From the NCBI GenBank assembly GCA_025210735.1, contig JAOARD010000040.1, positions 27,347-91,346 on the forward strand: a stretch of 64,000 nt of DNA, read 5' to 3'. The position numbers and the translations under genes were made by a program. Within the stretch, counting starts at the first letter, position 1. The number at the start of each line of letters is the position of its first letter. This document shows positions 20,031 through 44,634 of this stretch, one piece after another. The DNA comes from Bacteroidales bacterium (GTDB lineage Bacteria; Bacteroidota; Bacteroidia; Bacteroidales; UBA6680). The notes beneath the pieces are model-generated. The model was not told where the DNA came from, made no database searches, and saw only the letters and a program-made list of their open reading frames with translations.

Positions 20031-20060
20031 AAAAGGCTCTTAGCGGAGCCTTTTGCTTTC
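20031..20060 (+). terminator. Intrinsic terminator/attenuator between tube and chaperone genes
   Basis: AAAAGGCTCTTAGCGGAGCCTTTTGCTTTC. Confidence 0.5.
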
Positions 20061-20105
20061 TAAAACAGAGTCTTTAAAAGAGTTTCATAAAAAATAAACA
20101 ACAGT

Positions 20106-23489: not shown

Positions 23490-23502
23490 AAACTAAACAG
23501 TT

Positions 23503-24150: not shown

Positions 24151-24156
24151 TAGCCT

Positions 24157-25143: not shown

Positions 25144-25186
25144 CCCCTTTGGTCAGATAATTTATTAACCAAAAACTATATAATCT

Positions 25187-25927: not shown

Positions 25928-25931
25928 AGCA

Positions 25932-26264: not shown

Positions 26265-26490
26265 TGGACAGAATGTATTTGATATTGCTGTACAGGAGTA
26301 TGGTAATGTAGAGGCTGCTTTTGAGGTGCTAAGACTTAATCCTCATATTGTTAGCAGCGATACAGATTACAACTATGAGTTATCAAAAAGTATAAAACCA
26401 GGAGTTGAACTGAGTATTGATACTGATAGTGATCTGTACAGACCCAAAATAAAACGAGAGTTGGAGAACAAAAACATAATATCAGATTAA
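26242..26490 (+). CDS. Hypothetical small baseplate-associated protein
   Basis: ORF, overlaps neighbours by a few codons. Confidence 0.3.
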   Translation: MKKIKTVDGQNVFDIAVQEYGNVEAAFEVLRLNPHIVSSDTDYNYELSKSIKPGVELSIDTDSDLYRPKIKRELENKNIISD

Positions 26491-26491
26491 T

Positions 26492-27343
26492 ATGGAACAG
26501 TATAATACGTTGGCAGCCTGCAGAGAGGCTGTAGAGAGCAAATCGCGCGAGAGATTTGGTGACAAACTGGATACTTCCGGAGCTTCAGAATGGGGATTAT
26601 GGATAGGAATTCTCTCATACTGTATCTGGATATTTAACAATATTCTAAATCTCTTTAAGAGAGATGTTGAGGCCAGTATACAGAGTAAAAAGATGTTTCT
26701 TTTACCATGGTACGCAAAGATGATAAAGGAGTTTCAGCTTGGCGACAGTCTTGTTACAGATAAGAGTGGGATTACTTCATATCCGGTTGTTGATGAGAAG
26801 AAGAGAATAATTAAACATGTAACTATTAGAGAGACAACAGAGGGATTATCTATTAAGGTTGCAAAAGAGATTGATGATAACGGGGTTAAAAAACTGGCAC
26901 CTTTAAACAGGGCTACAGATGAGTTTATACAGTTTAAACGTTATGTAGAGAATCGTAAAGCTCCGGGAACAAAGATAGAGTATATATCGTTAGGTCCTGA
27001 TGTGGTATACCTTGATACAGATATCTATTACGACTCACTCTATATCCCAATGTCTGGCGACAATGCAGTTGATTCGGTTAAAGGTAATGTGCTCAGAACA
27101 CTTGAGGAGTATAAAGAGAGCCTTGGTTACGAGGGGATTATTTATGTGTCTGATCTTGAGAAGAGACTATCTGAGACCGATGGTGTAGTTACAGCAAAGA
27201 TAAACCTTATAAAAGGAACTCAGGGTAGTGCAGTTACCACGTTTGATGTTGCCTATATTCTTAAATCAGGTTATTTCAACTTTGATGACAGTGTAGTTGT
27301 AAACATGCATAATAGTGCTGATTTTCTTAAGACTATAAACTAA
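26492..27343 (+). CDS. Baseplate J-like protein
   Basis: 283 aa, synteny W-J-I-H. Confidence 0.45.
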   Translation: MEQYNTLAACREAVESKSRERFGDKLDTSGASEWGLWIGILSYCIWIFNNILNLFKRDVEASIQSKKMFLLPWYAKMIKEFQLGDSLVTDKSGITSYPVVDEKKRIIKHVTIRETTEGLSIKVAKEIDDNGVKKLAPLNRATDEFIQFKRYVENRKAPGTKIEYISLGPDVVYLDTDIYYDSLYIPMSGDNAVDSVKGNVLRTLEEYKESLGYEGIIYVSDLEKRLSETDGVVTAKINLIKGTQGSAVTTFDVAYILKSGYFNFDDSVVVNMHNSADFLKTIN

Positions 27344-27383
27344 TATAGGTTTAATATGACCATTAAAAAACAAATTTAGACAT

Positions 27384-27866
27384 ATGAATCTTAATTTAGA
27401 TATAAAAAGCTTTGTAAACAGGATGATTCCTGTTCACAAAAGACAGCCTGTGCGTCTGAAAATACTTGGATTCTTTGCCGATCTGATGTCTGAGATATAT
27501 AACGATTATGCAAGCTACAGGGATGAGTTGTTATATCGGTTTAACGTTACAGGAGAGGTGCTTAGTCTTAAGAATTTTCTTAACCGGCAGATCCCTGAGG
27601 CAGGTGGCAGAATAGATATTATACACGGAAAAGAGAATGGGTTCTCAATTCAGCTAAGATCTGAGCAGGGGTATAATTATCTGCAACTAAGCAATAGCGA
27701 TGGTAACCAGTTTGTAGAGGTAGCTTTGCGCGGAGAGATATTAGATCCTTTTACAGAGTCGTTTGCAGTAGAGGTGCCTGAGCATGTAAATACCGATAAA
27801 GTGCTTGCAATTGTTAACGAGTACCGACTTGCAGGTAAGAGCTTTAAAATAATCAATAAACAGTAA
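27384..27866 (+). CDS. Tail protein gpI-like
   Basis: 160 aa preceding the fibre gene; upstream AAACAAATTTAGACATATGA start context shared with lanB. Confidence 0.4.
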   Translation: MNLNLDIKSFVNRMIPVHKRQPVRLKILGFFADLMSEIYNDYASYRDELLYRFNVTGEVLSLKNFLNRQIPEAGGRIDIIHGKENGFSIQLRSEQGYNYLQLSNSDGNQFVEVALRGEILDPFTESFAVEVPEHVNTDKVLAIVNEYRLAGKSFKIINKQ

Positions 27867-27874
27867 CAAAACTA

Positions 27875-27975
27875 AATACATATGAAACGAAGCATGAGAA
27901 AGAATTTTCACACACACGAGAATGATTATTATGCGAAGTTCCATCTGACCATTAAAAAGAAAAAATAAACAGATG
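27875..27975 (+). repeat. Conserved start-codon-proximal element, copy B
   Basis: ACATATGAAACGAAGCATGAGAAAGAATTTTCACACACACGAGAATGATTATTATGCGAAGTTCCATCTGACC...AAACAGATGAAAAG; ends in the fibre gene ATG. Confidence 0.8.
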
Positions 27976-30009
27976 AAAAGACAAGTACAGGCAGAGGGTG
28001 TACGTCAGTGGTATGGCGATGATCTGATATCTCTGCAGAGTGAGCCGATGAAGGTTCTTGACAAATTTTTTGAGGATTATGGTAATATGATAATCTCAGG
28101 ATGTAAGGTTAAAGGTAATAGTATAACCCCTGGTTTAGTAGGATTAACTTATGAAAACGAAGGTAGTTCTATATATAAGGTTTGTGAATTCAGAGGACTT
28201 GACTCTGTAGAGTCATGGCCGGTATTTCTGTCGTTATCAAAAGAGGTTATAGATGGTAAATATGCCTCAGAGCAGACAAAACCAATTATTGAGCAGTATA
28301 TTGCTAAACCCGATTATCTTGAACCGGATGGTATCTACATAAGTATTAATAGTAACGGACAGGTATTTGCATATGAAAGCGATGATGCAATAGAGACCAG
28401 AATGGTTACATTACGTGAAATAAATGACTGGAATAGATCCAGAGCAGATGCAGTATCAGATGTAAGAGGAGGAGTTCCTTCTAATGTAAATACACTTAAG
28501 CAGCTTTATAACTGGGTGCAGGCTAACTATCTGCAGAAGACATTAAGAAGTAATAGCCATACATCAACATCAACAGAGAGTGTTGCAACTAGTAAGGCAG
28601 TTAACGATTCAAAAACAAGCGTTATATCAACAATCAGAGATGGTGCTGCTCCGGCATATAATACATTTAAAAAACTGTATGATTATGTTGTTGGCAACTA
28701 TATTCTTAACTCAAGAGTTAATGACAGTCACTCGTCTGCATCAACAAATAATGTAGCATCAAGTAAAGCAGTATTGGATGCAAAAACAAATGTGTTGTCA
28801 ACAATACGTGGTGGTATATCAACAACGTATGATACCCTTAAGAAGTTATATGATTATGTTGTTAATAACTATATATCTAATGGCAGAGTAAGTAACCTGC
28901 ATACATCTCAGTCAACAACAAATGTTGCTTCAAGTAAGGCTGTTTATGATGCAAAGAGTAGTGTTCTGTCTACAATTCGTGGAGGAGTATCTTCGTCATA
29001 CGATACCCTTAAGGAGTTATATGATTATGTTGTTAATAATTATGTTTCTAATGGTAGGGTAAGTAATCTACATACATCAGACTCAACAACAAATGTGGCC
29101 TCAAGTAAAGCTGTAAAAGATGCAAAAAGTAGTGCTGTTTCAATAGTAGTTGGAGGAGAGGCAACATATAATACATTAAAGAAACTGTATAATTATGTTG
29201 TAGGTAACTATGTTTCAAAATCAAGTATTAATAGTAGCCATACCTCAACCTCAACCTCAACTGTAGCATCAAGTAAAGCTGTTTATGATGCAAAGAATAG
29301 TGTACTGTCTACAATTCGTGGAGGAGTATCTTCGTCATATGATACCCTTAAGGAGTTATTGGATTATGTGACTGGTAATTATGTCTCTAATTCAAGGGTG
29401 AGTGATAATCATACTTCAAGTTCTAAAACAGATGTAGCGTCAAGTAAGGCTGTAAAAGATGCAAAGAGCAGTGTTATTTCAACATTACTTGGAGGAGAAT
29501 CTACATATAATACGTTAAAGAAAATGTATAATTATATTGTAGGTAATTATATCGCAAAATCTAAAATTAGTAATAGTTATACATCATCTTCTACAACCAA
29601 TGTTGCTTCAAGTAGAGCTGTAAGAGATAGTGTAAGTAGTGTAAAGAGAGAGCTTGGATTTAATATTATTGACTCATGGAGTAAATCTCATAATTCACAA
29701 TCTGGATACGAGATACAGCTAACTGCTGTTAAGTATGTAAATGGAATGGTTCGTTTATGTATTAAATCAGATGATAGTCCTGGGCAGGTTACAGATCCTG
29801 GATATTTACTTGAACTACCAGAGATGTACAGACCTGTTGAGGATGTAACATTTGTTGGGTCAGGCTCTATTAGTGGTAGAGATATTAATCTGACAAAATA
29901 TAAATTATTAAAATCAGGTAGATTGGAAAATGGAACAATTACGCATGCTACTGTAATGTATCAGGCAGTTATGACAATGAGTGAGTTTGATGATTATTAT
30001 GTTTGTTAA
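27973..30009 (+). CDS. Tail fibre protein with about 6.5 tandem ~58-aa repeats
   Basis: 678 aa; repeats of ...HTSxSTTNVASSKAV(Y/K)DAKSSVLSTIRGGVSSSYDTLK(E/K)LYDYVVNNYVSNGRVSN between roughly 28540 and 29650. Confidence 0.7.
   Translation: MKRQVQAEGVRQWYGDDLISLQSEPMKVLDKFFEDYGNMIISGCKVKGNSITPGLVGLTYENEGSSIYKVCEFRGLDSVESWPVFLSLSKEVIDGKYASEQTKPIIEQYIAKPDYLEPDGIYISINSNGQVFAYESDDAIETRMVTLREINDWNRSRADAVSDVRGGVPSNVNTLKQLYNWVQANYLQKTLRSNSHTSTSTESVATSKAVNDSKTSVISTIRDGAAPAYNTFKKLYDYVVGNYILNSRVNDSHSSASTNNVASSKAVLDAKTNVLSTIRGGISTTYDTLKKLYDYVVNNYISNGRVSNLHTSQSTTNVASSKAVYDAKSSVLSTIRGGVSSSYDTLKELYDYVVNNYVSNGRVSNLHTSDSTTNVASSKAVKDAKSSAVSIVVGGEATYNTLKKLYNYVVGNYVSKSSINSSHTSTSTSTVASSKAVYDAKNSVLSTIRGGVSSSYDTLKELLDYVTGNYVSNSRVSDNHTSSSKTDVASSKAVKDAKSSVISTLLGGESTYNTLKKMYNYIVGNYIAKSKISNSYTSSSTTNVASSRAVRDSVSSVKRELGFNIIDSWSKSHNSQSGYEIQLTAVKYVNGMVRLCIKSDDSPGQVTDPGYLLELPEMYRPVEDVTFVGSGSISGRDINLTKYKLLKSGRLENGTITHATVMYQAVMTMSEFDDYYVC
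28540..29650 (+). repeat. Intragenic tandem repeat array (about 175-183 bp unit) inside the tail fibre gene
   Basis: Six full and one partial protein-level repeats; units 3 and 5 nearly identical (AVYDAK(S/N)SVLSTIRGGVSSSYDTLKEL). Confidence 0.7.
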
Positions 30010-30318
30010 ATGCAAGGATTTATAGGAGGTAGCTTTGCAAGATATATAAGAGGAGAGGAATCACATTATAATGATATTGATATGTATTTTGATTATAATC
30101 AGTTGCCCGAGTTGATATCTCATCTTACAAGTATTGGTGTTGCAATATCAGAGCATAATGGAAATGGGGTTATATGGTGCTCTACCATACACAATAACAT
30201 GGATATTATTGTATTTCAGCCAGATTTTGAATATGAAACAGAGCAAGTAATGGGATTTACTCTGTTGACATCAGAAACTATAGATAATATATATAGGTAT
30301 GCAGCAAGCATTAAGTGA
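30010..30318 (+). CDS. Minimal nucleotidyltransferase-fold protein, paralog 1
   Basis: GGSFARYIRGEESHYNDIDMYFD matches the Pol-beta/MNT hG[GS]x(9-13)DhD motif and NMDIIVF supplies the third carboxylate; start abuts the fibre stop. Confidence 0.5.
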   Translation: MQGFIGGSFARYIRGEESHYNDIDMYFDYNQLPELISHLTSIGVAISEHNGNGVIWCSTIHNNMDIIVFQPDFEYETEQVMGFTLLTSETIDNIYRYAASIK

Positions 30319-30361: not shown

Positions 30362-30703
30362 ATGCAAGGATTTATAGGAGGTAGCTTTGCTAAGTATATA
30401 AGAGAAGAAGTTACGCAGTATAACGATATTGATATATACTTTGATTATAGTCAGTTCATTGAACTTATGCCTGAATTGATGAAAAGAGGGGTTGCTCTGT
30501 CAGAACACCCGGATCATAAGATAGTAGCTTTTACGGCTAAACATAAGGGTATTGATGTTATGGTGTTTAAATCAGATTTTGAATACAAAATAGAGCAAGT
30601 AATGGGTTTTACGCTTTTAACAAAAGATACGATGGATAAGATATACAAAAATGCAGAAATGCGTAGATTGTTAAGAGAGCGTATGTTAAGTAAAAAAAGG
30701 TGA
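30362..30703 (+). CDS. Minimal nucleotidyltransferase-fold protein, paralog 2
   Basis: GGSFAKYIREEVTQYNDIDIYFD ... GIDVMVF; about 50% identical to paralog 1. Confidence 0.5.
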   Translation: MQGFIGGSFAKYIREEVTQYNDIDIYFDYSQFIELMPELMKRGVALSEHPDHKIVAFTAKHKGIDVMVFKSDFEYKIEQVMGFTLLTKDTMDKIYKNAEMRRLLRERMLSKKR

Positions 30704-33499: not shown

Positions 33500-33593
33500 T
33501 TGAAATGAAGCATGAGAATAGTCATTCACACACACGGAGATGATTATAAATGCGAGTTCCATCTGGCAAATAAAAAACAATTATAATCAGATG
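33500..33593 (+). repeat. Conserved start-codon-proximal element, copy C
   Basis: TGAAATGAAGCATGAGAATAGTCATTCACACACACGGAGATGATTATAAATGCGAGTTCCATCTGGCAAATAAAAAACAATTATAATCAGATG. Confidence 0.8.
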
Positions 33594-36190: not shown

Positions 36191-36210
36191 TTAGTTAAGA
36201 TTAAAACTTA

Positions 36211-36246
36211 ATAAGGTTGTCTTTGATGAGGCAACCTTATTTTTTG
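36211..36246 (+). terminator. Rho-independent terminator after amidohydrolase gene
   Basis: ATAAGGTTGTCTTTGATGAGGCAACCTTATTTTTTG. Confidence 0.7.
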
Positions 36247-36409: not shown

Positions 36410-36652
36410 ATGGAAACATTCAATAAAATACTTAAACTTGAGCAGATACATCAACTTATAAAATTAAGGTCAACCGGAAATGCTCAGGAGTTTAGTAATA
36501 AAATGGGGATAAGTGTGGCAACACTGAAAAGAGAGATTAACACTATGAGAAAGTTAGGCTGCCCCATAAAATACTGTCGTTATAGCAGGTCATATTATTA
36601 TGAATATGAAGGCGAAATGAACCTGCAATTCAGAAGACGTAACAGAGTGTAA
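36410..36652 (+). CDS. Small HTH protein upstream of lanC (candidate cluster regulator)
   Basis: 80 aa; NAQEFSNKMGISVATLKREINTMRKLG helix-turn-helix. Confidence 0.45.
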   Translation: METFNKILKLEQIHQLIKLRSTGNAQEFSNKMGISVATLKREINTMRKLGCPIKYCRYSRSYYYEYEGEMNLQFRRRNRV

Positions 36653-36882
36653 TTGTTAAAAAAAACAAAAAAACATCACCGTATCAATTTATGACACGGT
36701 ACCATATTATGTTTGTAATATAGTTTTTTAAAGGACAACCCAAATACATCTAATGAGTTTGATTTACATTTCAGAATACAGAATAAAACATTGTTTATCA
36801 GGTATCGGATAAGAATATATTTATTATATCTGATGGTGTAGGGTAGTCATAGTTTTTATAATTATATCTATTTATAAAATTT

Positions 36883-38082
36883 ATGTGGAAACCGTTAAAT
36901 GTTGAGAATAAAGAGAGAGCAGATCAGGTATTAAACAGTATTGCAGACACTTTATACAGCTACGATTTTAATCAGGTTGGTATTGGTCTGATGGGAGGAA
37001 AAGCTGGTATAGCTCTGTTTATGTATTACTATTACAGATATACCAATAATGAGAAGTATCTTGATAAAGCCAATGAGTATATAGAGTCGGATTTTGAACA
37101 AATAAACAATGGATTCTCTTTTGGAACACATGCCGGAGGTATTTCAGGAATACTGTATGCATTAAGTATAATAAAAGAGGAAGGATTTGTTGATATTGAT
37201 AAAGAGTTATTTCAGGAGTTTGATACATATCTTTCAGAAAGTATAACAAATTGTTTTAAGAATAATAATTATGATTTTCTTCATGGAGCTTTGGGCTATG
37301 GAATTTTCTTTCTAAGATATCCGGAGTTATATATAGACAACCTTGAAAAAGCGTTTGATAACCTTAAAGATATGGCAACCGATTTTAAGGAGAATGGTGT
37401 TGCCTGGCATTCTGTTAACTCTCATGCCAATTTTGAGGGATATAACTTGAGCTTATCACATGGGTTATCCAGTATAATTCACTTTCTGGCAAAGTTATAT
37501 GAACATGATATATGTAAAGATCGTGTTTATAATCTATTGAAAGAGGCTGTTAAATACCTTTTCTACAATCTTCAGCCTGTTGATGAAATAGGGTCTTACT
37601 TTCCTGCATGGTCAGATCCGGGAGTTTATGAATGGAGCCGTATGGCTTGGTGCTATGGCGATATGGGAATAGCAGCATCTCTTTGGCAGGTGGGATATAT
37701 TACAGGTAATGATGAATGGAGAGAGAAAGCAGAAGAGGTATTACTATTCTCAGCAAACCGTAGAGATGTAATGAAAGAACTTGTAAGAGATGCAGGACTT
37801 TGTCATGGCTCAGCAGGTTTGGCTCTTATGTTTCATAGAATGTACAACTATACTCAACGAATAGAATTTAAAGAGACTGCTGAATATTGGGTGGATGTAA
37901 CATTTAAATTCTCTAATAGTGAAGATGGTGTTGCTGGTTTTAAAGCTTACAGGCCAGCAAATTCTGAAGGAAATACAAAAGAGACAGGGATGTTAGAAGG
38001 AGCGGCCGGAGTAGGTTTAAGTCTTATATCTGCAATGTCTGAGATAGAACCTAAGTGGGATGCTACACTATTATTGAGCTAA
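36883..38082 (+). CDS. lanC: Class I lanthipeptide cyclase LanC
   Basis: LanC zinc-ligand motifs WCYGDMG and GLCHGSAG plus Gly-rich repeats (GGKAGIALF, HGALGYGIFFL) of the alpha-toroid. Confidence 0.85.
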   Translation: MWKPLNVENKERADQVLNSIADTLYSYDFNQVGIGLMGGKAGIALFMYYYYRYTNNEKYLDKANEYIESDFEQINNGFSFGTHAGGISGILYALSIIKEEGFVDIDKELFQEFDTYLSESITNCFKNNNYDFLHGALGYGIFFLRYPELYIDNLEKAFDNLKDMATDFKENGVAWHSVNSHANFEGYNLSLSHGLSSIIHFLAKLYEHDICKDRVYNLLKEAVKYLFYNLQPVDEIGSYFPAWSDPGVYEWSRMAWCYGDMGIAASLWQVGYITGNDEWREKAEEVLLFSANRRDVMKELVRDAGLCHGSAGLALMFHRMYNYTQRIEFKETAEYWVDVTFKFSNSEDGVAGFKAYRPANSEGNTKETGMLEGAAGVGLSLISAMSEIEPKWDATLLLS

Positions 38083-38143
38083 TGATATAAGCGTATGCCG
38101 AAAAGCTATAATAGAGTAGGCGGTTAATATAAATTGAAAAGTT

Positions 38144-38305
38144 ATGAGAAAGCTAAAGTTATCATTAAAGAAGGAAATTATTTCTGATTTAGAGGCAAAT
38201 AAAGTTAAAGGAGGAGGAAACAATCCAAGAGAAACTTTTACTGGATGTCCTGCAAAGTACACTGACGATTGTCCTTCTGGTCCTAAATGTACCCTAGAGT
38301 GTTAG
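38144..38305 (+). CDS. lanA: Lanthipeptide precursor LanA-1 (53 aa, below ORF-track cutoff)
   Basis: MRKLKLSLKKEIISDLEANKVKGGGNNPRETFTGCPAKYTDDCPSGPKCTLEC read from sequence; conserved leader, Cys/Thr/Ser-rich core. Confidence 0.75.
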   Translation: MRKLKLSLKKEIISDLEANKVKGGGNNPRETFTGCPAKYTDDCPSGPKCTLEC

Positions 38306-38373
38306 ACTTAATCTAAACTAGCGTAAGCCGAAAAGCTATAACAGAGTAGGCGACACCAACAAATATACAGATT

Positions 38374-38592
38374 ATGAGAAAGTTAAAATTGACACTTAAA
38401 AAAGAGATTATTTCTGATCTTGAGTCAAAAGAGGTTAAAGGAGGAAAACCTTTAGATACTGGTAACTGTGTAACACAGCAAGTAGCTTGTGTTACAAGAC
38501 AGAATGTTTACAGTTGTATAGGTTGTTTACCTACAGGAGACTGCGAAACAAAGGTGCCTGTTTGCTTCACAATAGATGATTGTGAGTCATAA
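38374..38592 (+). CDS. lanA: Lanthipeptide precursor LanA-2
   Basis: Leader MRKLKLTLKKEIISDLESKEVKGG; core with 7 Cys. Confidence 0.8.
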   Translation: MRKLKLTLKKEIISDLESKEVKGGKPLDTGNCVTQQVACVTRQNVYSCIGCLPTGDCETKVPVCFTIDDCES

Positions 38593-38796
38593 ACAACAGA
38601 TGTTATTAGAAAATTAAAGTTTTCTGAGGGAGAGTTTTTTAATCTAATGGAGAATATAAAACTCTCTCCAATACTTTATAAAAGCTATTAGAACTTCACT
38701 ATAAGATAAGAATATATTATTGAGTGTTAGTATACAAAAAAATAGCGGTGACCGAAAAGCTATAATAGAGTAGGAAAAAATTAAAAAACCAAAATT

Positions 38797-38997
38797 ATGC
38801 GAAAACTAAAATTATCTTTAAAGAAAGAGGTTATCTCTGATCTTGAATCAGTAAGAGGTGGTAATATGAATAACAGAACATGGACTATTCCGGGAACATG
38901 TTGTATTAATCCTGATCCATCAAGAAGAGACGATACTTGCGAGACCAGACACTGTCAGTCTGTAGAGTGTGAGTATACAGAGATTAATTGCATGTAA
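38797..38997 (+). CDS. lanA: Lanthipeptide precursor LanA-3 (TIPGTCC subfamily)
   Basis: Leader ...SDLESVRGG; core NRTWTIPGTCCINPDPSRRDDTCETRHCQSVECEYTEINCM. Confidence 0.8.
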   Translation: MRKLKLSLKKEVISDLESVRGGNMNNRTWTIPGTCCINPDPSRRDDTCETRHCQSVECEYTEINCM

Positions 38998-39015
38998 TTT
39001 AACATATAGTGCAAG

Positions 39016-39219
39016 ATGAGAAAATTAAAATTAACACTAAAGAAAGAGATTATCTCTGACCTTGAAGCAAAAGAGATAAAGGGTGGTGCAAATACATTAG
39101 ATCAGTGCCAGACTCAAGGAGCGTCTTGTTTGACAAATTGCGAAATTGATACTTGTATTGATTGCTTTATGACTAATGGTTGTGAATCAGTTCCTTGTAC
39201 AAAGGCTGATTGTCTGTAA
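39016..39219 (+). CDS. lanA: Lanthipeptide precursor LanA-4
   Basis: Leader ...EAKEIKGG; core ANTLDQCQTQGASCLTNCEIDTCIDCFMTNGCESVPCTKADCL. Confidence 0.8.
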   Translation: MRKLKLTLKKEIISDLEAKEIKGGANTLDQCQTQGASCLTNCEIDTCIDCFMTNGCESVPCTKADCL

Positions 39220-39241
39220 CTAATAATTAAAAACCAAAATT

Positions 39242-39445
39242 ATGCGAAAATTAAAATTAACACTAAAGAAAGAGATTATCTCTGATCTTGAAGCAAAAGA
39301 GATAAAGGGTGGTGCAAATACATTAGATCAGTGCCAGACTCAAGGAGCGTCTTGTTTGACAAATTGCGAAATTGATACTTGTATTGATTGCCTTATGACT
39401 AATGGTTGTGAATCAGTTTCTTGTACAAAAGCTGATTGTCTGTAA
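39242..39445 (+). CDS. lanA: Lanthipeptide precursor LanA-5 (near-identical duplicate of LanA-4, 2 aa differences)
   Basis: Core differs only F/L and P/S from LanA-4; flanking DNA also duplicated. Confidence 0.8.
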   Translation: MRKLKLTLKKEIISDLEAKEIKGGANTLDQCQTQGASCLTNCEIDTCIDCLMTNGCESVSCTKADCL

Positions 39446-39467
39446 CTAATAATTAAAAACCAAAATT

Positions 39468-39650
39468 ATGCGAAAACTAAAACTGTCGTTAAAGAAAGAG
39501 GTTATCTCTGACCTTGAAGCAAAAGAAATAAAAGGTGGTAATGGATCAAAATTTGATTGTACGCCAAGAACTGCAATATCACTTTGTATAAGATGTGTTT
39601 ATACAGAGGGTGAGGAGTATACATGTGAAATGGTTTGCGGACTGGAATAA
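39468..39650 (+). CDS. lanA: Lanthipeptide precursor LanA-6
   Basis: Leader conserved; core NGSKFDCTPRTAISLCIRCVYTEGEEYTCEMVCGLE. Confidence 0.75.
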   Translation: MRKLKLSLKKEVISDLEAKEIKGGNGSKFDCTPRTAISLCIRCVYTEGEEYTCEMVCGLE

Positions 39651-39663
39651 AGAGTGAATCATT

Positions 39664-39852
39664 ATGCGAAAATTAAAACTATCGTTAAAAAAAGAGGTCA
39701 TCTCTGACCTTGAAGCAAAAGAGGTAAAAGGCGGTGCAACTATAGATTGCTATTCTGCAAATAGATATTGTAGACCACGTACCAGAGAAATCTCTATTTG
39801 TGTTGATTGTTCGCCAACTGAACAAAGGACTTGCAGAATTTGTGAGGATTAA
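39664..39852 (+). CDS. lanA: Lanthipeptide precursor LanA-7
   Basis: Leader conserved; core ATIDCYSANRYCRPRTREISICVDCSPTEQRTCRICED. Confidence 0.75.
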   Translation: MRKLKLSLKKEVISDLEAKEVKGGATIDCYSANRYCRPRTREISICVDCSPTEQRTCRICED

Positions 39853-39890
39853 TGTAATTATAATAATTACTAATTAACTACTTAATTATT

Positions 39891-40064
39891 ATGAGAAAAC
39901 TGAAACTATCCTTAAAAAAGGATATCATATCAGACCTTGAAAACAAAGAGGTAAAGGGCGGAGTAATTTATTCTGAAAATATGAATTGCAGACCTAAGAC
40001 ATATGAACTGTCGCGTTGTTTAATGTGTGATAAAACGCAAGAGTTAACATGTATGGCTTGTTAA
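39891..40064 (+). CDS. lanA: Lanthipeptide precursor LanA-8 (57 aa, below ORF-track cutoff)
   Basis: MRKLKLSLKKDIISDLENKEVKGGVIYSENMNCRPKTYELSRCLMCDKTQELTCMAC read from sequence. Confidence 0.7.
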   Translation: MRKLKLSLKKDIISDLENKEVKGGVIYSENMNCRPKTYELSRCLMCDKTQELTCMAC

Positions 40065-40104
40065 TAATTTCTTGTTTGACATTTCATATCTAATAATAAG
40101 CCTT

Positions 40105-40290
40105 AGGATAAAACTTAAACTATCTCTTTAAAACGAGATTATATAATATTTTGAGGCAAATAATACCGTAGTTGGAGGTATTAATTCACATAGAACCTTA
40201 TCAATTCAGGCTATATTTTGTCGTGATATTGATAAATGTGAGACAGGTATTGTGATATCGATACTTGTTTACAAATATTTTTTGTTAATA
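40105..40290 (+). pseudogene. Decayed lanthipeptide precursor copy
   Basis: ATAAAACTTAAACTATCTCTTTAAAACGAGATTATA aligns to ATGAGAAAACTGAAACTATCCTTAAAAAAGGATATCATA with start lost and in-frame stops; downstream remnant still encodes CRDIDKCETGIV. Confidence 0.5.
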
Positions 40291-40306
40291 ACTAATAACC
40301 ATAAAG

Positions 40307-40525
40307 ATGAGAAAATTAAAACTATCATTAAAAAAAGAGATCATCTCTGATCTAGAATCAAAAGAGGTAAAAGGAGGTATGAATACTATTGATTTGTGTA
40401 AGACAGAACCACAATCTTATTGGACAAATTGTGAAGTTAATACTTGTGTTAATTGCCTTTTGACTAAAAATTGTGAGACAACACCTTTAGATTCATGTGA
40501 ATGTCTTCCGACATATATGTGTTAA
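40307..40525 (+). CDS. lanA: Lanthipeptide precursor LanA-9
   Basis: Leader ...ESKEVKGG; core MNTIDLCKTEPQSYWTNCEVNTCVNCLLTKNCETTPLDSCECLPTYMC. Confidence 0.8.
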   Translation: MRKLKLSLKKEIISDLESKEVKGGMNTIDLCKTEPQSYWTNCEVNTCVNCLLTKNCETTPLDSCECLPTYMC

Positions 40526-40683
40526 ATATCGGAAATATGATTAATCAAATGGGAATATGTTTTTGAATGGCATTCCTATATCAGGAATATTATAAATGTA
40601 ATTCTGTTTGGCTGATGAATTTTCTAAAACTATACATGTGTATAGTTCTAACTATTACTAATAAACAATTAAAAATCAGAATT

Positions 40684-40872
40684 ATGAGAAAATTAAAATT
40701 AACATTAAAAAAAGAGATTATCTCTGATCTTGAGAATGTAACGGGTGGTATTAATCCTAACAGAACTGTAACAATTCCAGGTACTTGTTGTATCGTTGAA
40801 GAAACTAAGCATTTTCATAGTTGTGAGACTGATTGCAATACAGATACCTGTCATACAAAAATCTTCTGTTAA
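40684..40872 (+). CDS. lanA: Lanthipeptide precursor LanA-10 (TIPGTCC subfamily; start revised from 40567)
   Basis: MRKLKLTLKK begins at codon 40 of the listed ORF; the upstream extension is AT-rich spacer. Confidence 0.75.
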   Translation: MRKLKLTLKKEIISDLENVTGGINPNRTVTIPGTCCIVEETKHFHSCETDCNTDTCHTKIFC

Positions 40873-40893
40873 TAACTAAATAAGATAAGTAAG

Positions 40894-41088
40894 ATGAGAA
40901 AGTTAAAATTATCTTTAAAGAAAGAGGTTATATCTGATCTTGAGTCAGTAACTGGTGGTATTAATCCTTTAAAAACTAGGACAATTCCAGGAACATGTTG
41001 CTTAGATCCAGATCCATCAAGACAAGACGATACTTGTGAAACAAGATATTGCGAAACACAAGCTTGTCATACAAGACAATTTTGTTAA
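40894..41088 (+). CDS. lanA: Lanthipeptide precursor LanA-11 (TIPGTCC subfamily)
   Basis: Leader ...SDLESVTGG; core INPLKTRTIPGTCCLDPDPSRQDDTCETRYCETQACHTRQFC. Confidence 0.8.
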   Translation: MRKLKLSLKKEVISDLESVTGGINPLKTRTIPGTCCLDPDPSRQDDTCETRYCETQACHTRQFC

Positions 41089-41315
41089 TTCAACATGTTT
41101 AACAAATAGAACGTATAGTGAGTGATTTCAATTTTACGATTACTGTTTGCTTGTTTTATATGGATAATTGAGTAAAATTGAATACCTCAAAATATTAAGA
41201 GGGCGTTTAACACGCCCTTTTTAACTTCTAAAACAAGAATATGAGGCGAGCATATACAAGATTTATCTCAAACATAGAGATGAAAAAGTTATGTGAGCTC
41301 ATATAGCAACTGAAA

Positions 41316-41425
41316 AACAAATTTAGATATATGAAACGAAGCATGAGTAAAGGATTTTCTCACACACGAGGATGGCTAAGAATGCGAGTTCCATATGACC
41401 TTTAAGAAACAAATTTAGACATATG
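41316..41425 (+). repeat. Conserved start-codon-proximal element, copy D
   Basis: AAACAAATTTAGATATATGAAACGAAGCATGAGTAAAGGATTTTCTCACACACGAGGATGGCTAAGAATGCGAGTTCCATATGACC...AAACAAATTTAGACATATG; flanked by a 20-bp direct repeat that includes the lanB ATG. Confidence 0.8.
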
Positions 41426-43648
41426 AAACCAGAATACTCTATAGCCGACTCGTTTGTATACCGGCGTCATCTGTTGCCAACAGATACGCTTGATAGTATA
41501 ATAAACGGAGGTGATATATCATTAGATACACTTGTTAAGTTCTGTTTAAAACAGGAGATTTTTGAACCAATATTTATTGCATCGCAAGAGTTGGCATTAC
41601 AGATAGTGAAGTATAATGAAGGAACCCTGAAGGATAAGAAGAAACAGGATAAGCTTAAGGAGTCCCTGCTTAAGTATGTATCGCGTATGTCGTCAAGATG
41701 TACACCATTTGGTCTTTTTGCAGGTTGCTGCACAGGGTCATTTACAGATAATACGGAGGTGCAAATGTCTGAGATATCTGACTTTAGAAAGCATACCAGA
41801 CTTGATATGCACTATCTTATTAATATTGCAGATTATATACAGAAAGATAAAAGCATACGTTCGCAACTTAAGTTTTATCCTAATTCGAGCCTGTACACCG
41901 TAGACGATAAATATCGCTATGTTGAATACAAATACAATAAAGGAAACAGAAAACATTTTATAGTTGAGGTAGAGAGTAATGAATATCTTGATGCAATTAT
42001 TCAGGATGCAAAGCAGGGAAAAACAATAAATCAACTCACAGATGTTCTTACAAAAGATGGATATACCAAAGAGGAGTCAACAGAGTATATAGAGGAGATA
42101 ATTGATAATCAGGTATTGATATCGGAACTTGAACCATCGGTAACAGGAAGTGAGTTTATAGATCACATTAAAAAGAAACTTACAGAGCTTGATAACTCCG
42201 GCGAGATATTATCTGTAATATCAGATATAGACAATAAGATAAACAATATAAATACCTCAGAAATTGGTCTGGAGACATCAAATTACAATGATGTTACAGA
42301 TAAACTTAAATCTTTGGAGTTACCATTTAACCCCAAATATATATACCAGACAGACCTGAATATTGCCAGTAACAGTTGCGAACTGAGTAAAGATATTAAG
42401 AATGATCTTCTTGAAGGGCTAAGTATACTTAACAGAATAACACCAAAAAGAGAGGAGACTCAACTGGATAGTTTTAAGAGTAGTTTCTACTCAAGATACG
42501 AAGAGCGCGAGATGCCTCTGTTACAGGTTTTGGACACTGACTTAGGAATAGGATTCAAACAGAACGGAAAGTCTTCCGGGAATGATATAAATCCTCTTGT
42601 AGACGATCTGTTTATCTCTCCGGGTAAACAAAACGGTTATAAGACTAATATAAATAAGCTGTACAGTATTCTTCATAAGAAAGTTGTTGAAGCAGTAAAG
42701 ACCGATAGCATAGAGATTGAGTTGACAGATAAAGATCTTGAAGGATTTGAGGCAGATAATAATGATATGCCACTATCAATGTCAGCAATGACAGAGGTGT
42801 ATAAAACCGACAATGGTATTGAGATATCACTAAAAAGTGTAGGAGGATCAAGTGGAGCTAATCTGTTAGGACGATTTGCTCAGAGTAATGACGACATAAA
42901 AGAACATGTTAAGAATATTACCTTAAAGGAGCAGGAAAAAACAGGAGATAAAATACTTGCTGAGATTGTCCATGTGCCGGAATCGCGTGTTGGAAATATA
43001 TTGCAACGCCCTGAATTAAGAGATTATGAGATACCATATCTGGGAAGAACAGCCGTTAATCCTGATAATGCAATATATCCTGACGACCTTATGATATCTG
43101 TAAGATATGGTAAATATATTACCCTCAGATCTAAACGACTTAACAAGATTATATCGCCACGATTAAGTACTGCTCATAACTACTCAAATAATGCTCTGCC
43201 TCTTTATGAGTTTCTGTGTAATATGCAGACAGACGGGCTAAAATCCGGACTGTTTTTCCATTGGGGTGATATAGAGAACCAATTTGATTTTTTACCACGC
43301 GTTAGGTACAAAAACATAATATTTGAGCATGCCCAATGGAGGGTGAAAAGTGATGAGGTAAAGCATATATTTGATATTAAGGATGAGCAGAAGATGCTTG
43401 AAGAAATGAATGCTCTGCGTCAGAAGAGAGGTATTCCGGCAAAGGTGCTTCTTGTTGAGGGCGATAATGAGTTATATCTAGATCTTAGTATATCAGCATA
43501 TATAAAACTGCTGAGAGCTGCATCAAAACGCGGAGTATTTGTCCTTAAGGATTTTTATTATACCTCTGATAAGGCTCTGGAGAGTAAAGGTGATAAACAT
43601 TACAGAAATCAATTTGTATTTACATTTGAGAAGGAGGTGCAGAAATGA
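41423..43648 (+). CDS. lanB: Lanthipeptide dehydratase LanB, N-terminal glutamylation part (split LanB)
   Basis: 741 aa; N-terminal FVYRRHLLP (LanB FxxRTPLLP-type) motif; stop overlaps start of the next ORF (ATGA). Confidence 0.85.
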   Translation: MKPEYSIADSFVYRRHLLPTDTLDSIINGGDISLDTLVKFCLKQEIFEPIFIASQELALQIVKYNEGTLKDKKKQDKLKESLLKYVSRMSSRCTPFGLFAGCCTGSFTDNTEVQMSEISDFRKHTRLDMHYLINIADYIQKDKSIRSQLKFYPNSSLYTVDDKYRYVEYKYNKGNRKHFIVEVESNEYLDAIIQDAKQGKTINQLTDVLTKDGYTKEESTEYIEEIIDNQVLISELEPSVTGSEFIDHIKKKLTELDNSGEILSVISDIDNKINNINTSEIGLETSNYNDVTDKLKSLELPFNPKYIYQTDLNIASNSCELSKDIKNDLLEGLSILNRITPKREETQLDSFKSSFYSRYEEREMPLLQVLDTDLGIGFKQNGKSSGNDINPLVDDLFISPGKQNGYKTNINKLYSILHKKVVEAVKTDSIEIELTDKDLEGFEADNNDMPLSMSAMTEVYKTDNGIEISLKSVGGSSGANLLGRFAQSNDDIKEHVKNITLKEQEKTGDKILAEIVHVPESRVGNILQRPELRDYEIPYLGRTAVNPDNAIYPDDLMISVRYGKYITLRSKRLNKIISPRLSTAHNYSNNALPLYEFLCNMQTDGLKSGLFFHWGDIENQFDFLPRVRYKNIIFEHAQWRVKSDEVKHIFDIKDEQKMLEEMNALRQKRGIPAKVLLVEGDNELYLDLSISAYIKLLRAASKRGVFVLKDFYYTSDKALESKGDKHYRNQFVFTFEKEVQK

Positions 43649-44535
43649 AACGATCATTTATTCCGGGAGAGGAGTGGGTATACTATAAACTATATTCAGG
43701 AACAAAGAGTGCAGACAGAGTATTAACACAACATATACTACCACTTGCCGAGGAACTTATGGAGGCTGGGGTTGTTGAAGAGTGGTTCTTTATCAGATAC
43801 TCAGACCCAGATGAACATATAAGAGTACGATTCAGAGTTAAAGATATGACGGCATATGCAACAGTTATATCGCAGGTTACACCTATGCTTAAACAGTTGC
43901 ATGAAACAGGTATTATCTGGAAAATAATGATGGATACCTATAACAGGGAAATAGAGCGTTATGGAAGCGAATCTATACCTGTGTTGGAGAGTCTGTTTTT
44001 TGTTGATAGCAAGCATGTCATGAAACTACTTGGTGCCGTTACAAATCAGGAACATATGGCATATGTAGGTATGCATATGATTGATACTATATTATCAGTA
44101 TTTGGTAATAATCTGGCTGCAAAAAACGATCTTGCAACAATGTGGCACGACTCAATGGGTAAGGAGTTTAATATGGATAAAAGTCTTAGGGTGCAGATAG
44201 ATGGTAAGTACCGAAAATCTAAAAAGAGTGTTGCAGGAGTGTTTGATAATAGCCTGTTTGATACACGTGTACAGATGATACTTAAATCGTACAAAAACCA
44301 ACTATCTGATATTGCAACAAAGATAGATGAGCTTTATGCAGAGGATAAGGTTGAGGTTGAAAAGAAACAGCTGCTGAATAGTATATGCCATATGTCTATG
44401 AATCGTCTGTTCCGTTCTAAGCAGCGAATGAGTGAAATGGTAATATACGGATACCTGTCAAGATACTATAATAGTATGCTTATGAGAGAGAAATATAGCA
44501 AAAAGAGTAAAAAAGAGCTTGTAGAAGCAGAATAG
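43645..44535 (+). CDS. LanB C-terminal glutamate-elimination domain protein (SpaB_C / thiopeptide-type)
   Basis: 296 aa; translationally coupled to the LanB N-terminal gene; YYKLYSG...EWFFIRYSDPDEHIRVRF is typical of the standalone elimination domain. Confidence 0.8.
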   Translation: MKRSFIPGEEWVYYKLYSGTKSADRVLTQHILPLAEELMEAGVVEEWFFIRYSDPDEHIRVRFRVKDMTAYATVISQVTPMLKQLHETGIIWKIMMDTYNREIERYGSESIPVLESLFFVDSKHVMKLLGAVTNQEHMAYVGMHMIDTILSVFGNNLAAKNDLATMWHDSMGKEFNMDKSLRVQIDGKYRKSKKSVAGVFDNSLFDTRVQMILKSYKNQLSDIATKIDELYAEDKVEVEKKQLLNSICHMSMNRLFRSKQRMSEMVIYGYLSRYYNSMLMREKYSKKSKKELVEAE

Positions 44536-44600: not shown

Positions 44601-44634
44601 AACAGAGGGGATGATTCTCCTCTGTTATTTTTAC
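44601..44634 (+). terminator. Terminator after the lanthipeptide operon
   Basis: AACAGAGGGGATGATTCTCCTCTGTT followed by ATTTTTA. Confidence 0.55.

What the first reader, a model, noticed from the sequence alone, without database searches (positions are those of the whole stretch)
36410..44535. Class I lanthipeptide locus with 11 tandem precursors, a split LanB and no protease/transporter in the window
LanC (WCYG, CHG zinc motifs) is followed by 11 intact lanA genes. All share the leader MRKLKL(S/T)LKKE(I/V)ISDLE...GG and have hypervariable Cys/Ser/Thr-rich cores (4-8 Cys each). Then come a 741-aa LanB glutamylation part and a separately encoded, translationally coupled 296-aa elimination domain (ATGA overlap). 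Multi-precursor clusters serviced by one enzyme set are best known for class II (ProcM). A class I split-LanB system with this many divergent substrates implies an unusually substrate-tolerant dehydratase/cyclase pair. The small HTH gene at 36410 is the only regulator candidate. No LanT/LanP/LanFEG genes lie within the window.
Basis: partly seen in the sequence, partly recalled or inferred. Interest (0 to 1): 0.85.

Follow-up and report, generated by a model that had tools for sequence, protein, structure and literature searches.

The report
Eleven-precursor class I lanthipeptide gene cluster
This is a real gene cluster in an uncultured Bacteroidales bacterium for making ring-containing lanthipeptides; its type is already known, but it has unusually many (11) different peptide genes served by one enzyme set.

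Summary
Window 36410-44535 holds a small HTH gene, LanC, 11 intact lanA genes, a 741-aa LanB glutamylation protein and a 296-aa elimination protein joined by an ATGA overlap. No transporter or protease lies in the window or 10 kb beyond either end.

All tested catalytic residues are present. The leader is held constant at the protein level despite many synonymous changes. Orthologous cores in a sister species have dN/dS of about 0.1, so the peptides are functional genes.

Split LanB, the LxLxKx5L...GG leader and multi-precursor arrays are the published norm for Bacteroidota class I clusters (pinensin type; Walker 2020).

What stands out is array size. This window has 11 genes in four core families. 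Sister strains have 12-13 and a sister species has 7. The maximum was 6 in 53 other Bacteroidota loci, and the published class I maximum I found is 10.

New details:
- A decayed 12th lanA.
- Three copies of the Rfam DUF805b hairpin just upstream of lanA1-3.
- A 92-nt dispersed repeat inserted at the lanB start codon.
- Terminator-like hairpins that bound the locus.

Verdict: new member of a known kind, moderate interest.

The parts
36210..36241 (+). Terminator-like hairpin after the upstream amidohydrolase gene; it marks the upstream boundary of the locus
   Evidence: 14-bp stem followed by a T run
36410..36652 (+). 80-aa HTH_11 protein, candidate transcriptional regulator
   Evidence: PF08279, E 9e-7. 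It is 97.5% aa identical in sister species L001 (dN 0.029, dS saturated). Homologues of 37-44% identity lie near LanB in L019, L058, L063 and L068.
36883..38082 (+). LanC cyclase (399 aa)
   Evidence: PF05147, E 5e-49. Best NCBIfam match is the LanM cyclase domain TIGR03897, E 3e-32. WCYG (C257), CHG (C307/H308) and SHG (H193) are present. dN/dS against L001 is 0.078.
38088..38122 (+). DUF805b-type hairpin motif, copy 1; it ends 21 nt before the lanA1 ATG
   Evidence: Rfam RF02914, 42.9 bits against a gathering score of 35.6
38144..38305 (+). lanA1 (53 aa; 24-aa leader; 29-aa core with 4 Cys)
   Evidence: the ortholog in L001 has dN/dS 0.066
38318..38352 (+). DUF805b-type hairpin motif, copy 2
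   Evidence: RF02914, 43.8 bits
38374..38592 (+). lanA2 (72 aa; 7 Cys)
   Evidence: near-identical copies in sister strains L085-L092
38742..38776 (+). DUF805b-type hairpin motif, copy 3
   Evidence: RF02914, 43.4 bits
38797..38997 (+). lanA3 (66 aa; 22-aa leader; 6 Cys; same core family as lanA10 and lanA11)
39016..39219 (+). lanA4 (67 aa; 8 Cys)
   Evidence: It is the first unit of a 226-bp tandem duplication that is 98% identical to the next unit.
39242..39445 (+). lanA5 (67 aa; 8 Cys; differs from lanA4 by 2 residues)
   Evidence: The copy number of this repeat rests on this one assembly.
39468..39650 (+). lanA6 (60 aa; 5 Cys)
   Evidence: L001 ortholog dN/dS 0.060
39664..39852 (+). lanA7 (62 aa; 6 Cys)
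   Evidence: L001 ortholog dN/dS 0.092
39891..40064 (+). lanA8 (57 aa; 5 Cys; leader has D at position 11)
40105..40290 (+). Decayed 12th lanA (pseudogene of the lanA10/11 family): no ATG and two in-frame stops
   Evidence: The translation reads RIKLKLSL*NEII*YFEANNTVVGGINSHRTLSIQAIFCRDIDKCETG... Its 5' part is 75-84% identical to lanA leaders and its 3' part is 76% identical to the lanA10 3' end. Coordinates are approximate.
40307..40525 (+). lanA9 (72 aa; 8 Cys)
   Evidence: L001 ortholog dN/dS 0.060
40684..40872 (+). lanA10 (62 aa; 22-aa leader; 6 Cys); the true start is internal to ORF 40567-40872
   Evidence: L001 ortholog dN/dS 0.109
40894..41088 (+). lanA11 (64 aa; 6 Cys)
   Evidence: L001 ortholog dN/dS 0.145
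41200..41218 (.). GC-rich hairpin with T/A runs on both sides, lying between the lanA array and lanB. It is a likely terminator or attenuator.
   Evidence: scored on the - strand; the + strand reads AGGGCGTTTAACACGCCCTTTTTAAC; conserved in L001 and L085
41331..41422 (+). 92-nt dispersed repeat inserted at the lanB start. The old ATG now opens a 24-codon upstream ORF.
   Evidence: Copies of the same element abut the start codons of genes at 27973, 33591 and 15916(-). It is absent upstream of lanB in sister species L001 and present in L085, L086 and L003.
41423..43648 (+). LanB glutamylation protein (741 aa)
   Evidence: PF04738, E 3e-144. R88, R92, T94, D128, D311 and R484 align with NisB R83, R87, T89, D121, D299 and R464 (PMC7296275). 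dN/dS 0.056.
43645..44535 (+). LanB elimination protein (296 aa), translationally coupled through an ATGA overlap
   Evidence: PF14028, E 1e-66, and TIGR03891. HIRVR, REIERYG and SICH align with NisB R786, E823/R826 and H961. dN/dS 0.073.
44601..44626 (+). Terminator-like hairpin; it marks the downstream boundary of the locus
   Evidence: 11-bp stem followed by a T run. Synteny with L001 ends here: L001 has MTHFR/MetH where the window has a BFN nuclease.

Best explanation
This is a functional class I lanthipeptide biosynthetic locus of the Bacteroidota (pinensin-like) type in an uncultured Bacteroidales bacterium.

Proposed mechanism:
1. Eleven precursors, comprising 10 distinct cores in four families, carry one conserved 22-24-residue leader of the form LxLxKx5L...GG. 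The leader directs them to a single enzyme set.
2. The 741-aa LanB protein glutamylates core Ser and Thr residues using Glu-tRNA(Glu).
3. The separately encoded 296-aa protein eliminates the glutamate to give Dha and Dhb.
4. The zinc enzyme LanC adds core Cys thiols to these residues to form (methyl)lanthionine rings.
5. The double-glycine leader is then removed, and the peptide exported, by a C39-peptidase ABC transporter (PCAT) encoded elsewhere in the genome.

Proposed expression layout:
- lanC and the lanA genes form one block, with DUF805b hairpins in front of lanA1-3 and a hairpin terminator after lanA11.
- lanB1 and lanB2 form a separate, translationally coupled pair.

Shown here: gene content, catalytic residues, selection on leaders and cores, strain-to-strain turnover of the array, and absence of a linked transporter.

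Inferred: the chemistry on each core, leader recognition, the unlinked PCAT, the transcription units and the biological activity. The cores are net acidic and activity is unknown.
For: - Domain hits are strong: LanC E 5e-49, LanB-N E 3e-144, LanB-C E 1e-66.
- All five NisB glutamylation residues whose mutation abolishes dehydration are conserved, and they are invariant in 24 homologues.
- The elimination-domain Arg, Glu, Arg and His are conserved.
- The LanC Cys-Cys-His zinc motifs are present.
- The leader is 93% identical in protein but only 82.5% identical in DNA over its first 17 codons. There are up to four synonymous codons per invariant residue. This indicates selection on the peptide, not recent copying.
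- Six precursors have orthologues in a sister species whose LanB is 89% identical. Their dN/dS is 0.06-0.15, with pooled cores at 0.10 and leaders at 0.09. The enzymes are similar, at 0.056-0.078.
- Ser+Thr is at least equal to Cys in all 11 cores, so every Cys could form a thioether.
- Independent assemblies from other samples recover the same architecture with 7, 12 and 13 precursors.
- The leader matches the published Bacteroidetes class I motif LxLxKx5L ending in GG. A C39 protease is often in such clusters (PMC7268733).
- 35 of 54 related loci have a PCAT within 10 kb.
Against: - There is no experimental or transcript evidence.
- No PCAT, membrane fusion protein, LanP or immunity gene lies in 84 kb around the cluster. 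Export and leader removal are therefore assumed.
- Nothing shows that one LanB/LanC pair can process four dissimilar core families.
- The lanA4/lanA5 tandem, which is 98% identical over 226 bp, is supported by only one assembly. An independent assembly of the same strain breaks exactly there (L090).
- A 92-nt repeat inserted at the lanB start could reduce lanB expression in this lineage.
Confidence: 0.78

Rival explanations
1. Only a subset of the 11 peptides are true LanB/LanC substrates. The others would mature differently, for example as disulfide-rich peptides, or would be inactive passengers that merely share the export leader.
For: The four core families are very dissimilar, with mean pairwise identity of 30%. 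LanC has the ordinary CCH zinc site rather than the CCG site associated with promiscuous ProcM-type enzymes (PMC12328550). Cys counts of 4-8 would also allow disulfides.
Against: All 11 keep the same enzyme-recognition leader under purifying selection. All have Ser+Thr at least equal to Cys. No other modifying enzyme is in the locus. Class I enzymes are known to be leader-directed and tolerant of the core (PMC12328550).
Confidence: 0.14
2. The locus is a cryptic or decaying remnant. It lacks a transporter, contains a pseudogene and has a repeat inserted at the lanB start.
For: No PCAT or protease lies in 84 kb. There is one decayed lanA. A 92-nt insertion creates an upstream ORF directly before lanB.
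Against: dN/dS is 0.06-0.15 for the precursors and 0.056-0.078 for the enzymes. All catalytic residues are intact. The insertion regenerates an intact ATGAAAC start, and LanB keeps the N-terminus conserved in homologues (M1, Y5, R14, L17). 19 of 54 related loci also lack a nearby PCAT.
Confidence: 0.05
3. The array is an assembly artefact caused by collapsed or expanded repeats.
For: The genes share a leader of about 70 nt. Short-read contigs of the same strain end inside the array (L090, L091, L092). lanA4 and lanA5 form a 98% identical tandem.
Against: The leaders are only 82.5% identical in DNA and the cores are unique sequence. Separate assemblies from at least four other samples give co-linear arrays with the same gene order (L085, L086, L087, L088, L001, L002, L003). 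Only the lanA4/lanA5 copy number is uncertain.
Confidence: 0.03

Closest known systems
Pinensin cluster of Chitinophaga pinensis and the Bacteroidetes class I family with LxLxKx5L...GG leaders (Mohr 2015; Walker 2020, PMC7268733)
   Same: Stand-alone LanC; LanB split into a glutamylation protein and an elimination protein; leader motif LxLxKx5L ending in GG; LanC sequence closest to LanM-type cyclase domains.
   Different: Eleven precursors here against one or a few. No C39 transporter is in the neighbourhood. The cores are unrelated to pinensin as far as tested: no NCBIfam model hits them.
Ped15.1/15.2 (Pedobacter lusitanus), viridisins and thalassomonasins: class I lanthipeptides of Gram-negative bacteria with double-glycine leaders
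   Same: Class I LanB/LanC chemistry directed by a conserved GG leader shared by several precursors in one operon (PMC9680876).
   Different: Those systems have two precursors and, per PMC9680876, unsplit LanB enzymes. Here there are 11 precursors and a split LanB.
Prochlorosin / ProcM and SyncM systems (class II)
   Same: One enzyme set, many precursors with a near-invariant leader and dissimilar cores, a GG leader, and transporter genes not next to the precursors (PMC12328550).
   Different: Those use a bifunctional LanM with a CCG zinc site and Nif11-type leaders, with 29-79 precursors scattered in the genome. Here the enzymes are LanB1/LanB2/LanC with a CCH site, the leader family is different, and the precursors sit in one tandem array.
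Tumebacillus flagellatus class I cluster with 10 distinct precursors (noted in Walker 2020)
   Same: A class I cluster with about ten different precursors. It is the largest class I number reported in that survey of RefSeq.
   Different: It is from a Firmicute. I did not examine that cluster. The array here is slightly larger (11; 12-13 in sister strains) and is of the Bacteroidota split-LanB type.
Split LanB dehydratases of thiopeptide and pyritide pathways
   Same: Separate glutamylation and elimination proteins. The elimination protein hits TIGR03891 'thiopeptide-type bacteriocin biosynthesis'.
   Different: No YcaO or cyclodehydratase, and no second PF14028-type [4+2] cyclase, was found in the window. 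A LanC with an intact zinc site is present.

Membership tests
Class I lanthipeptide biosynthetic cluster | LanB glutamylation domain with the residues required for dehydration (NisB R87, T89, D121, D299, R464) | tested here: met
   PF04738, E 3e-144. R92, T94, D128, D311 and R484 align with these NisB residues. The residue list comes from PMC7296275.
Class I lanthipeptide biosynthetic cluster | Glutamate-elimination domain with catalytic Arg, Arg and His (NisB R786, R826, H961) | tested here: met
   PF14028, E 1e-66. The alignment to NisB 4WD9 shows these residues conserved. The NisB residue numbers are from my own knowledge of Ortega et al. 2015.
Class I lanthipeptide biosynthetic cluster | Stand-alone LanC with a Cys-Cys-His zinc site | tested here: met
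   PF05147, E 5e-49. WCYG (C257) and CHG (C307, H308) are present. The ligand set is given in PMC7296275. Assignment is by motif, not by a printed NisC alignment.
Class I lanthipeptide biosynthetic cluster | Adjacent precursor(s) with a leader and a Ser/Thr/Cys-rich core | tested here: met
   Eleven ORFs; 4-8 Cys each; Ser+Thr at least equal to Cys in all of them.
Class I lanthipeptide biosynthetic cluster | Dehydration and thioether rings actually formed on the peptides | not testable with these tools
   This needs expression and mass spectrometry.
Bacteroidota pinensin-type class I family (Walker 2020) | Leader with LxLxKx5L in place of FxLD, ending in Gly-Gly | tested here: met
   L6, L8, K10, L16 and the GG are invariant in 11 of 11. 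The motif is described in PMC7268733.
Bacteroidota pinensin-type class I family (Walker 2020) | LanB split into two polypeptides | tested here: met
   Two ORFs with an ATGA overlap. 119 of the 120 best homologues are also N-domain only.
Bacteroidota pinensin-type class I family (Walker 2020) | C39 peptidase / PCAT encoded in the cluster (described as 'often', so not strictly defining) | tested here: not met
   None in the window or within 10 kb beyond each end. 35 of 54 related loci have one within 10 kb.
ProcM-type combinatorial lanthipeptide system (class II) | Bifunctional LanM synthetase with a CCG zinc motif | tested here: not met
   Separate LanB and LanC proteins. LanC has CHG and no CCG.
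ProcM-type combinatorial lanthipeptide system (class II) | Many precursors with a conserved leader and dissimilar cores served by one enzyme set | tested here: met
   Leader 93% identical against cores 30% identical. There is a single LanB/LanC set in 84 kb.
Thiopeptide/pyritide pathway with split LanB | YcaO-type cyclodehydratase and a [4+2] cycloaddition enzyme | tested here: not met
   No such Pfam hits on any ORF of 110 aa or more scanned in the window, nor in the gene tables.
Rfam RF02914 DUF805b RNA (the three elements before lanA1-3) | Covariance-model score above the curated gathering score | tested here: met
   42.9-43.8 bits against 35.6.
Rfam RF02914 DUF805b RNA (the three elements before lanA1-3) | 4-bp hairpin supported by compensatory changes | tested here: met
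   Inner pair G-C 19 / C-G 10; second pair A-T 22 / G-C 6; outer pair A-T 22 / T-A 3 among distinct instances. All four pairs form in 84 of 123 metagenome instances. Thermodynamic folding alone is not significant, with z between -0.2 and 0.9.
Rfam RF02914 DUF805b RNA (the three elements before lanA1-3) | Location upstream of DUF805-domain genes (the origin of the name) | tested here: not met
   Here, and in related loci, it precedes lanA genes. No DUF805 gene was seen in the window.

The most novel reading that the evidence does not exclude
This Bacteroidales lineage carries a class I counterpart of the prochlorosin system. One LanB1/LanB2/LanC set would mature ten or more dissimilar cores. 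The tandem gene array gains and loses cassettes between strains: 7, 11, 12 and 13 genes, with about 15 distinct cores in the group. Each surviving core stays under purifying selection. In addition, the orphan Rfam motif DUF805b would be a general 5' expression element for exported peptides and proteins in Bacteroidota. It sits a fixed 20-25 nt before the start codon, and here it precedes lanA1-3.
Probability: 0.35. Interest if true: 0.65.

Novelty: new member of a known kind. Interest (0 to 1): 0.45.

Why it matters
If the single split-LanB/LanC set really processes all four core families, this would be a compact natural example of multi-substrate class I lanthipeptide biosynthesis. That could be useful for enzyme-tolerance studies and peptide engineering, which so far rely mainly on class II ProcM/SyncM.

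The comparison between strains shows how such arrays evolve: cassettes are duplicated, lost and decay, while the leader and each retained core stay conserved.

The cluster also adds LanB-type lanthipeptides to Bacteroidales. A 2023 survey of Bacteroidales genomes found no LanB at all (PMC10352776).

The link between the DUF805b motif and precursor genes could help find unannotated precursor genes in Bacteroidota.

Tried and rejected
- **Sigma-70 promoter scan.** It found 34 sites against 43.9 expected. This is uninformative, because Bacteroidota use other promoter motifs.
- **Thermodynamic folding of the motif upstream of lanA.** There was no signal, with z near 0. Its reality rests on the Rfam score and on covariation.
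- **First regex for precursors in related loci.** It gave false families. For example, the eight 'peptides' in L024 are frames of a tandem DNA repeat. I replaced it with a leader HMM.
- **MAFFT alignment A3 of the motif.** It misplaced gaps in the 3' stem, so I did not use it with the pair-counting tool. I counted pairs in an anchored register in Python instead.
- **NCBIfam.** No model hits the precursors.
- **GTDB representative genomes.** They hold no close relative. The best LanB match is 61% identical, so the organism could be placed only as a Bacteroidales MAG.
- **Papers not held.** Bothwell 2021 (PMC9845027) and the supplement of Weinberg 2017 that describes DUF805b are not in the library.
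- **Idea that DUF805b is specific to lanthipeptide precursors.** Rejected. In an unbiased metagenome sample, 44% of downstream ORFs have signal-peptide-like N-termini and only 23% are GG-leader peptides.
- **Idea that the tRNA-Glu in the window belongs to the cluster.** Not supported. It lies 35 kb away among housekeeping genes.

Full report
**Observation**

- HTH_11 protein of 80 aa: 36410-36652.
- LanC: 36883-38082 (PF05147, E 5e-49).
- Eleven intact small ORFs lie between 38144 and 41088.
- LanB N-terminal protein of 741 aa: 41423-43648 (PF04738, E 3e-144).
- LanB C-terminal protein of 296 aa: 43645-44535 (PF14028, E 1e-66; TIGR03891). Its ATG overlaps the preceding TGA.

An alignment of the 11 peptides shows invariant M1 R2 K3 L4 K5 L6 L8 K9 K10 I13 S14 D15 L16 E17 and an invariant GG. 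The cores have 4-8 Cys.

Small corrections:
- lanA8 has Asp at leader position 11.
- lanA10 starts inside a longer ORF.
- lanA4 and lanA5 are a 98% identical 226-bp tandem. There are therefore 10 distinct cores, which fall into four sequence families: A1; A2, A4, A5, A9; A3, A10, A11; and A6, A7, A8. Mean pairwise core identity is 30%, against 93% for the leader.

**No transporter or protease nearby**

- A six-frame search for Walker A and ABC-signature motifs found nothing in the 64 kb.
- tblastn with three peptidase-containing ABC transporters (PCATs) taken from related loci gave no hit better than E 1.9.
- Pfam scans of the other ORFs show housekeeping genes, a phage-tail-like block at 18-30 kb, and T9SS-secreted proteins.
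- Exact-sequence look-ups place the window at about 27347-91346 of a 138,618-bp JGI metagenome contig. That contig is also deposited as a 'Bacteroidales bacterium' MAG.
- A Bacteroidales-type small SRP RNA at 6863-6970 agrees with that placement.
- Gene tables for 10 kb beyond each window end also lack any ABC transporter or LanP-type protease.

**Are the genes real and functional?**

*Catalytic residues.*
- LanB-N keeps R88, R92, T94, D128, D311 and R484. These align with NisB R83, R87, T89, D121, D299 and R464. Mutating NisB R87, T89, D121, D299 or R464 abolishes dehydration (PMC7296275).
- These residues are invariant in 24 homologues.
- The elimination protein keeps the Arg, Glu/Arg and His that align with NisB R786, E823/R826 and H961. 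The NisB numbers are from my knowledge of Ortega 2015.
- LanC has the WCYG and CHG zinc motifs (ligand set per PMC7296275).

*Selection on the leader.* Its first 17 codons are 93% identical in protein but only 82.5% identical in DNA. Invariant residues use up to four synonymous codons. This is the signature of selection on the peptide. It is not the signature of recent duplication, gene conversion or assembly collapse.

*Selection on the cores.* A sister species (locus L001; LanB 89% identical; same upstream synteny) has seven precursors. Six are orthologues of lanA1, 6, 7, 9, 10 and 11.
- Their dN/dS is 0.06-0.15.
- Pooled cores give 0.10 and pooled leaders 0.09.
- LanC, LanB-N and LanB-C give 0.078, 0.056 and 0.073.

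The cores are therefore diverse between paralogues but individually conserved. 'Hypervariable' is the wrong word.

*Ring capacity.* Ser+Thr is at least equal to Cys in all 11 cores, so every Cys could form a thioether.

**Assembly artefact?**

Independent assemblies from other samples recover co-linear arrays.
- Sister strains have 12 genes (L085, on a 184-kb contig) and 13 genes (L086).
- Two Logan contigs give partial arrays.
- The sister species has seven.

Across these, about 15 distinct core types occur. The window lacks four cores that the sister strains have, and it has lanA4/5 where they carry a different 76-aa precursor.

A decayed 12th copy lies at about 40105-40290. It has no ATG and two in-frame stops, and it is homologous to the lanA10 family. 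The array thus evolves by cassette gain, loss and decay.

The one weak point is the copy number of the lanA4/lanA5 tandem. An independent short-read contig of the same strain ends exactly at lanA4 (L090).

**How unusual is it?**

- *Split LanB is the rule.* Of the best 120 of more than 1693 homologues, 119 are N-domain-only proteins of about 745 aa.
- *The cluster type is published.* Walker et al. 2020 describe Bacteroidetes class I precursors with an LxLxKx5L leader ending in GG, often with a C39 protease in the cluster. They describe split LanB as in pinensin, and LanCs that resemble LanM cyclase domains (PMC7268733). All of this fits here; the best NCBIfam hit of LanC is LanM.
- *A missing PCAT is common.* In 54 related loci of at least 20 kb, 35 have a PCAT within 10 kb of LanB and 19 do not.
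- *Array size does stand out.* A leader HMM run on 53 GTDB loci of at least 20 kb found 0-6 precursors per locus, against 11 here and 12-13 in the sister strains (13). Walker 2020 reported that 62% of class I precursors are the only one in their cluster, and named a 10-precursor Tumebacillus cluster as the notable exception.
- *Caveats on the survey.* My sample is the best 80 of at least 582 loci. The HMM may also miss other leader types, since 20 loci scored zero.
- *No larger array found in the literature.* I found no paper reporting a larger class I array.
- *Bacteroidales context.* A 2023 survey of Bacteroidales genomes found no LanB at all (PMC10352776). Several MAGs labelled Bacteroidales do carry it.

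**Regulation and layout**

- Terminator-like hairpins at 36210-36241 and 44601-44626 bracket the locus. Another at 41200-41218 separates the lanA array from lanB.
- A 35-nt element ends 21 nt before the ATG of each of lanA1, lanA2 and lanA3. All three copies score above the Rfam gathering threshold for RF02914, the 'DUF805b' cis-regulatory RNA: 42.9-43.8 bits against 35.6.
- The element's 23-nt conserved core is identical upstream of lanA1 in the sister species, despite saturated synonymous sites.
- In eight distant lanthipeptide loci, Rfam finds 19 further copies. Eighteen of them lie 17-23 nt before the ATG of a small Cys-containing peptide with a GG-type leader.
- The 4-bp stem shows compensatory changes, while the 12-nt loop and the 3' tail UAAnAGAGUAGG are conserved.
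- An unbiased scan of metagenome contigs shows that the motif is not specific to lanthipeptides. Of 115 distinct downstream ORFs, 44% have signal-peptide-like N-termini and 23% are GG-leader peptides. The distance to the ATG peaks sharply at 22-24 nt.
- I read the motif as a general 5' element of genes for exported products in Bacteroidota, used here for the first three precursors. Its mechanism is unknown.
- I could not check what its discoverers wrote about it, because the supplement is not held.

**A repeat at the lanB start**

A 92-nt dispersed repeat lies directly upstream of, and flush with, the lanB-N start codon at 41331-42.
- Copies of it abut the start codons of three other genes in the window.
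- It is absent at this position in the sister species, so it is an insertion in this lineage.
- It leaves a 24-codon upstream ORF before lanB.
- LanB's conserved N-terminus (M1, Y5, R14, L17 in 24 homologues) shows that the 741-aa start is the right one. The 724-aa JGI call is too short.

**Most likely mechanism**

1. The shared leader recruits each precursor to LanB-N, which glutamylates core Ser and Thr with Glu-tRNA(Glu).
2. The coupled elimination protein produces dehydro residues.
3. LanC closes thioether rings.
4. A PCAT encoded elsewhere cuts after the GG and exports the peptides.

Steps 1-3 follow from family membership and intact active sites. Step 4 follows from the leader type and from the PCATs found in two thirds of related loci. 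None of the four steps has been shown experimentally. The products are net acidic and their activity is unknown.

**Verdict**

The finding is real and well described, but it is a new member of a known kind rather than a new system. Its points of interest are:
- the size and strain-level turnover of the precursor array;
- purifying selection on each core;
- the unlinked export step;
- the two cis elements noted above.

Noticed in passing
window 38088-38122, 38318-38352, 38742-38776 (+): Three copies of Rfam RF02914 'DUF805b' (a small hairpin with a conserved loop and tail) lie 21 nt before lanA1-3. The same motif precedes precursor genes in distant Bacteroidota lanthipeptide loci. In an unbiased metagenome sample it sits 22-24 nt before the start codons of signal-peptide proteins and GG-leader peptides. 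Its function is unknown.
   Followed up: yes
window 41331-41422; also about 27880-27972, about 33501-33590 and 15917-16113 (two tandem copies, - orientation): A dispersed repeat of about 92 nt always lies flush against a gene's start codon and is flanked by ATGAAA(C) on both sides. At lanB it is an insertion that is absent in sister species L001, and it creates a 24-codon upstream ORF. It has no Rfam match. Other copies lie at L001 19033-19126, L004 10559-10654 and L094 9712-9811.
   Followed up: partly
window about 40105-40290 (+): A decayed 12th lanA (relic of the lanA10/11 family, with no ATG and two in-frame stops) lies between lanA8 and lanA9.
   Followed up: yes
window 1581-1653 (+): A tRNA-Glu (UUC) gene lies 35 kb upstream of the cluster. 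Its location is probably coincidental. It does give the cognate co-substrate sequence needed for heterologous LanB activity.
   Followed up: partly
window 15440-30009: A phage-tail-like block: an HTH_3 repressor-like gene on the - strand, DUF2586, a 946-aa tape-measure-like protein, DUF6046 and several proteins with no known domain. It lies about 6 kb upstream of the lanthipeptide locus, and part of it is conserved in sister strains.
   Followed up: no
window 36803-36821 and 38700-38718 (+): A shared 19-mer, TAT(C/A)(G/A)GATAAGAATATATT, occurs about 60-80 nt upstream of both lanC and lanA3. It is a possible promoter or operator.
   Followed up: no
window 38606-38660 (+): A long hairpin (GGGAGAGTTTT...AAAACTCTCTCC) follows lanA2 in the 204-nt gap before lanA3, with no clear T run after it. 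It is a possible attenuator or RNA-stability element.
   Followed up: no
window 30010-30318 and 30362-30703 (+): Two adjacent paralogous small genes of unknown function, whose products share the N-terminus MQGFIGGSFA. Related pairs occur in L001.
   Followed up: no
window 61346-64000 (+; runs off the window end): A very large (1839 aa) T9SS-secreted protein with GEVED, PKD and Peptidase_C11 domains. It is a secreted cysteine protease unrelated to GG-leader cleavage as far as can be told.
   Followed up: partly
window 2440-2949 (-) and 55321-56115 (+): Two proteins with the SocA/Panacea antitoxin domain, one of them fused to an HTH_3 domain. They are possible toxin-antitoxin or defence modules.
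   Followed up: no
L089 (the window's own contig), JGI gene calls: Automatic gene calling on this contig found only 8 of the 11 lanA genes. It missed lanA3, lanA8 and lanA9 and over-extended lanA10. It also called LanB-N 17 codons short.
   Followed up: yes
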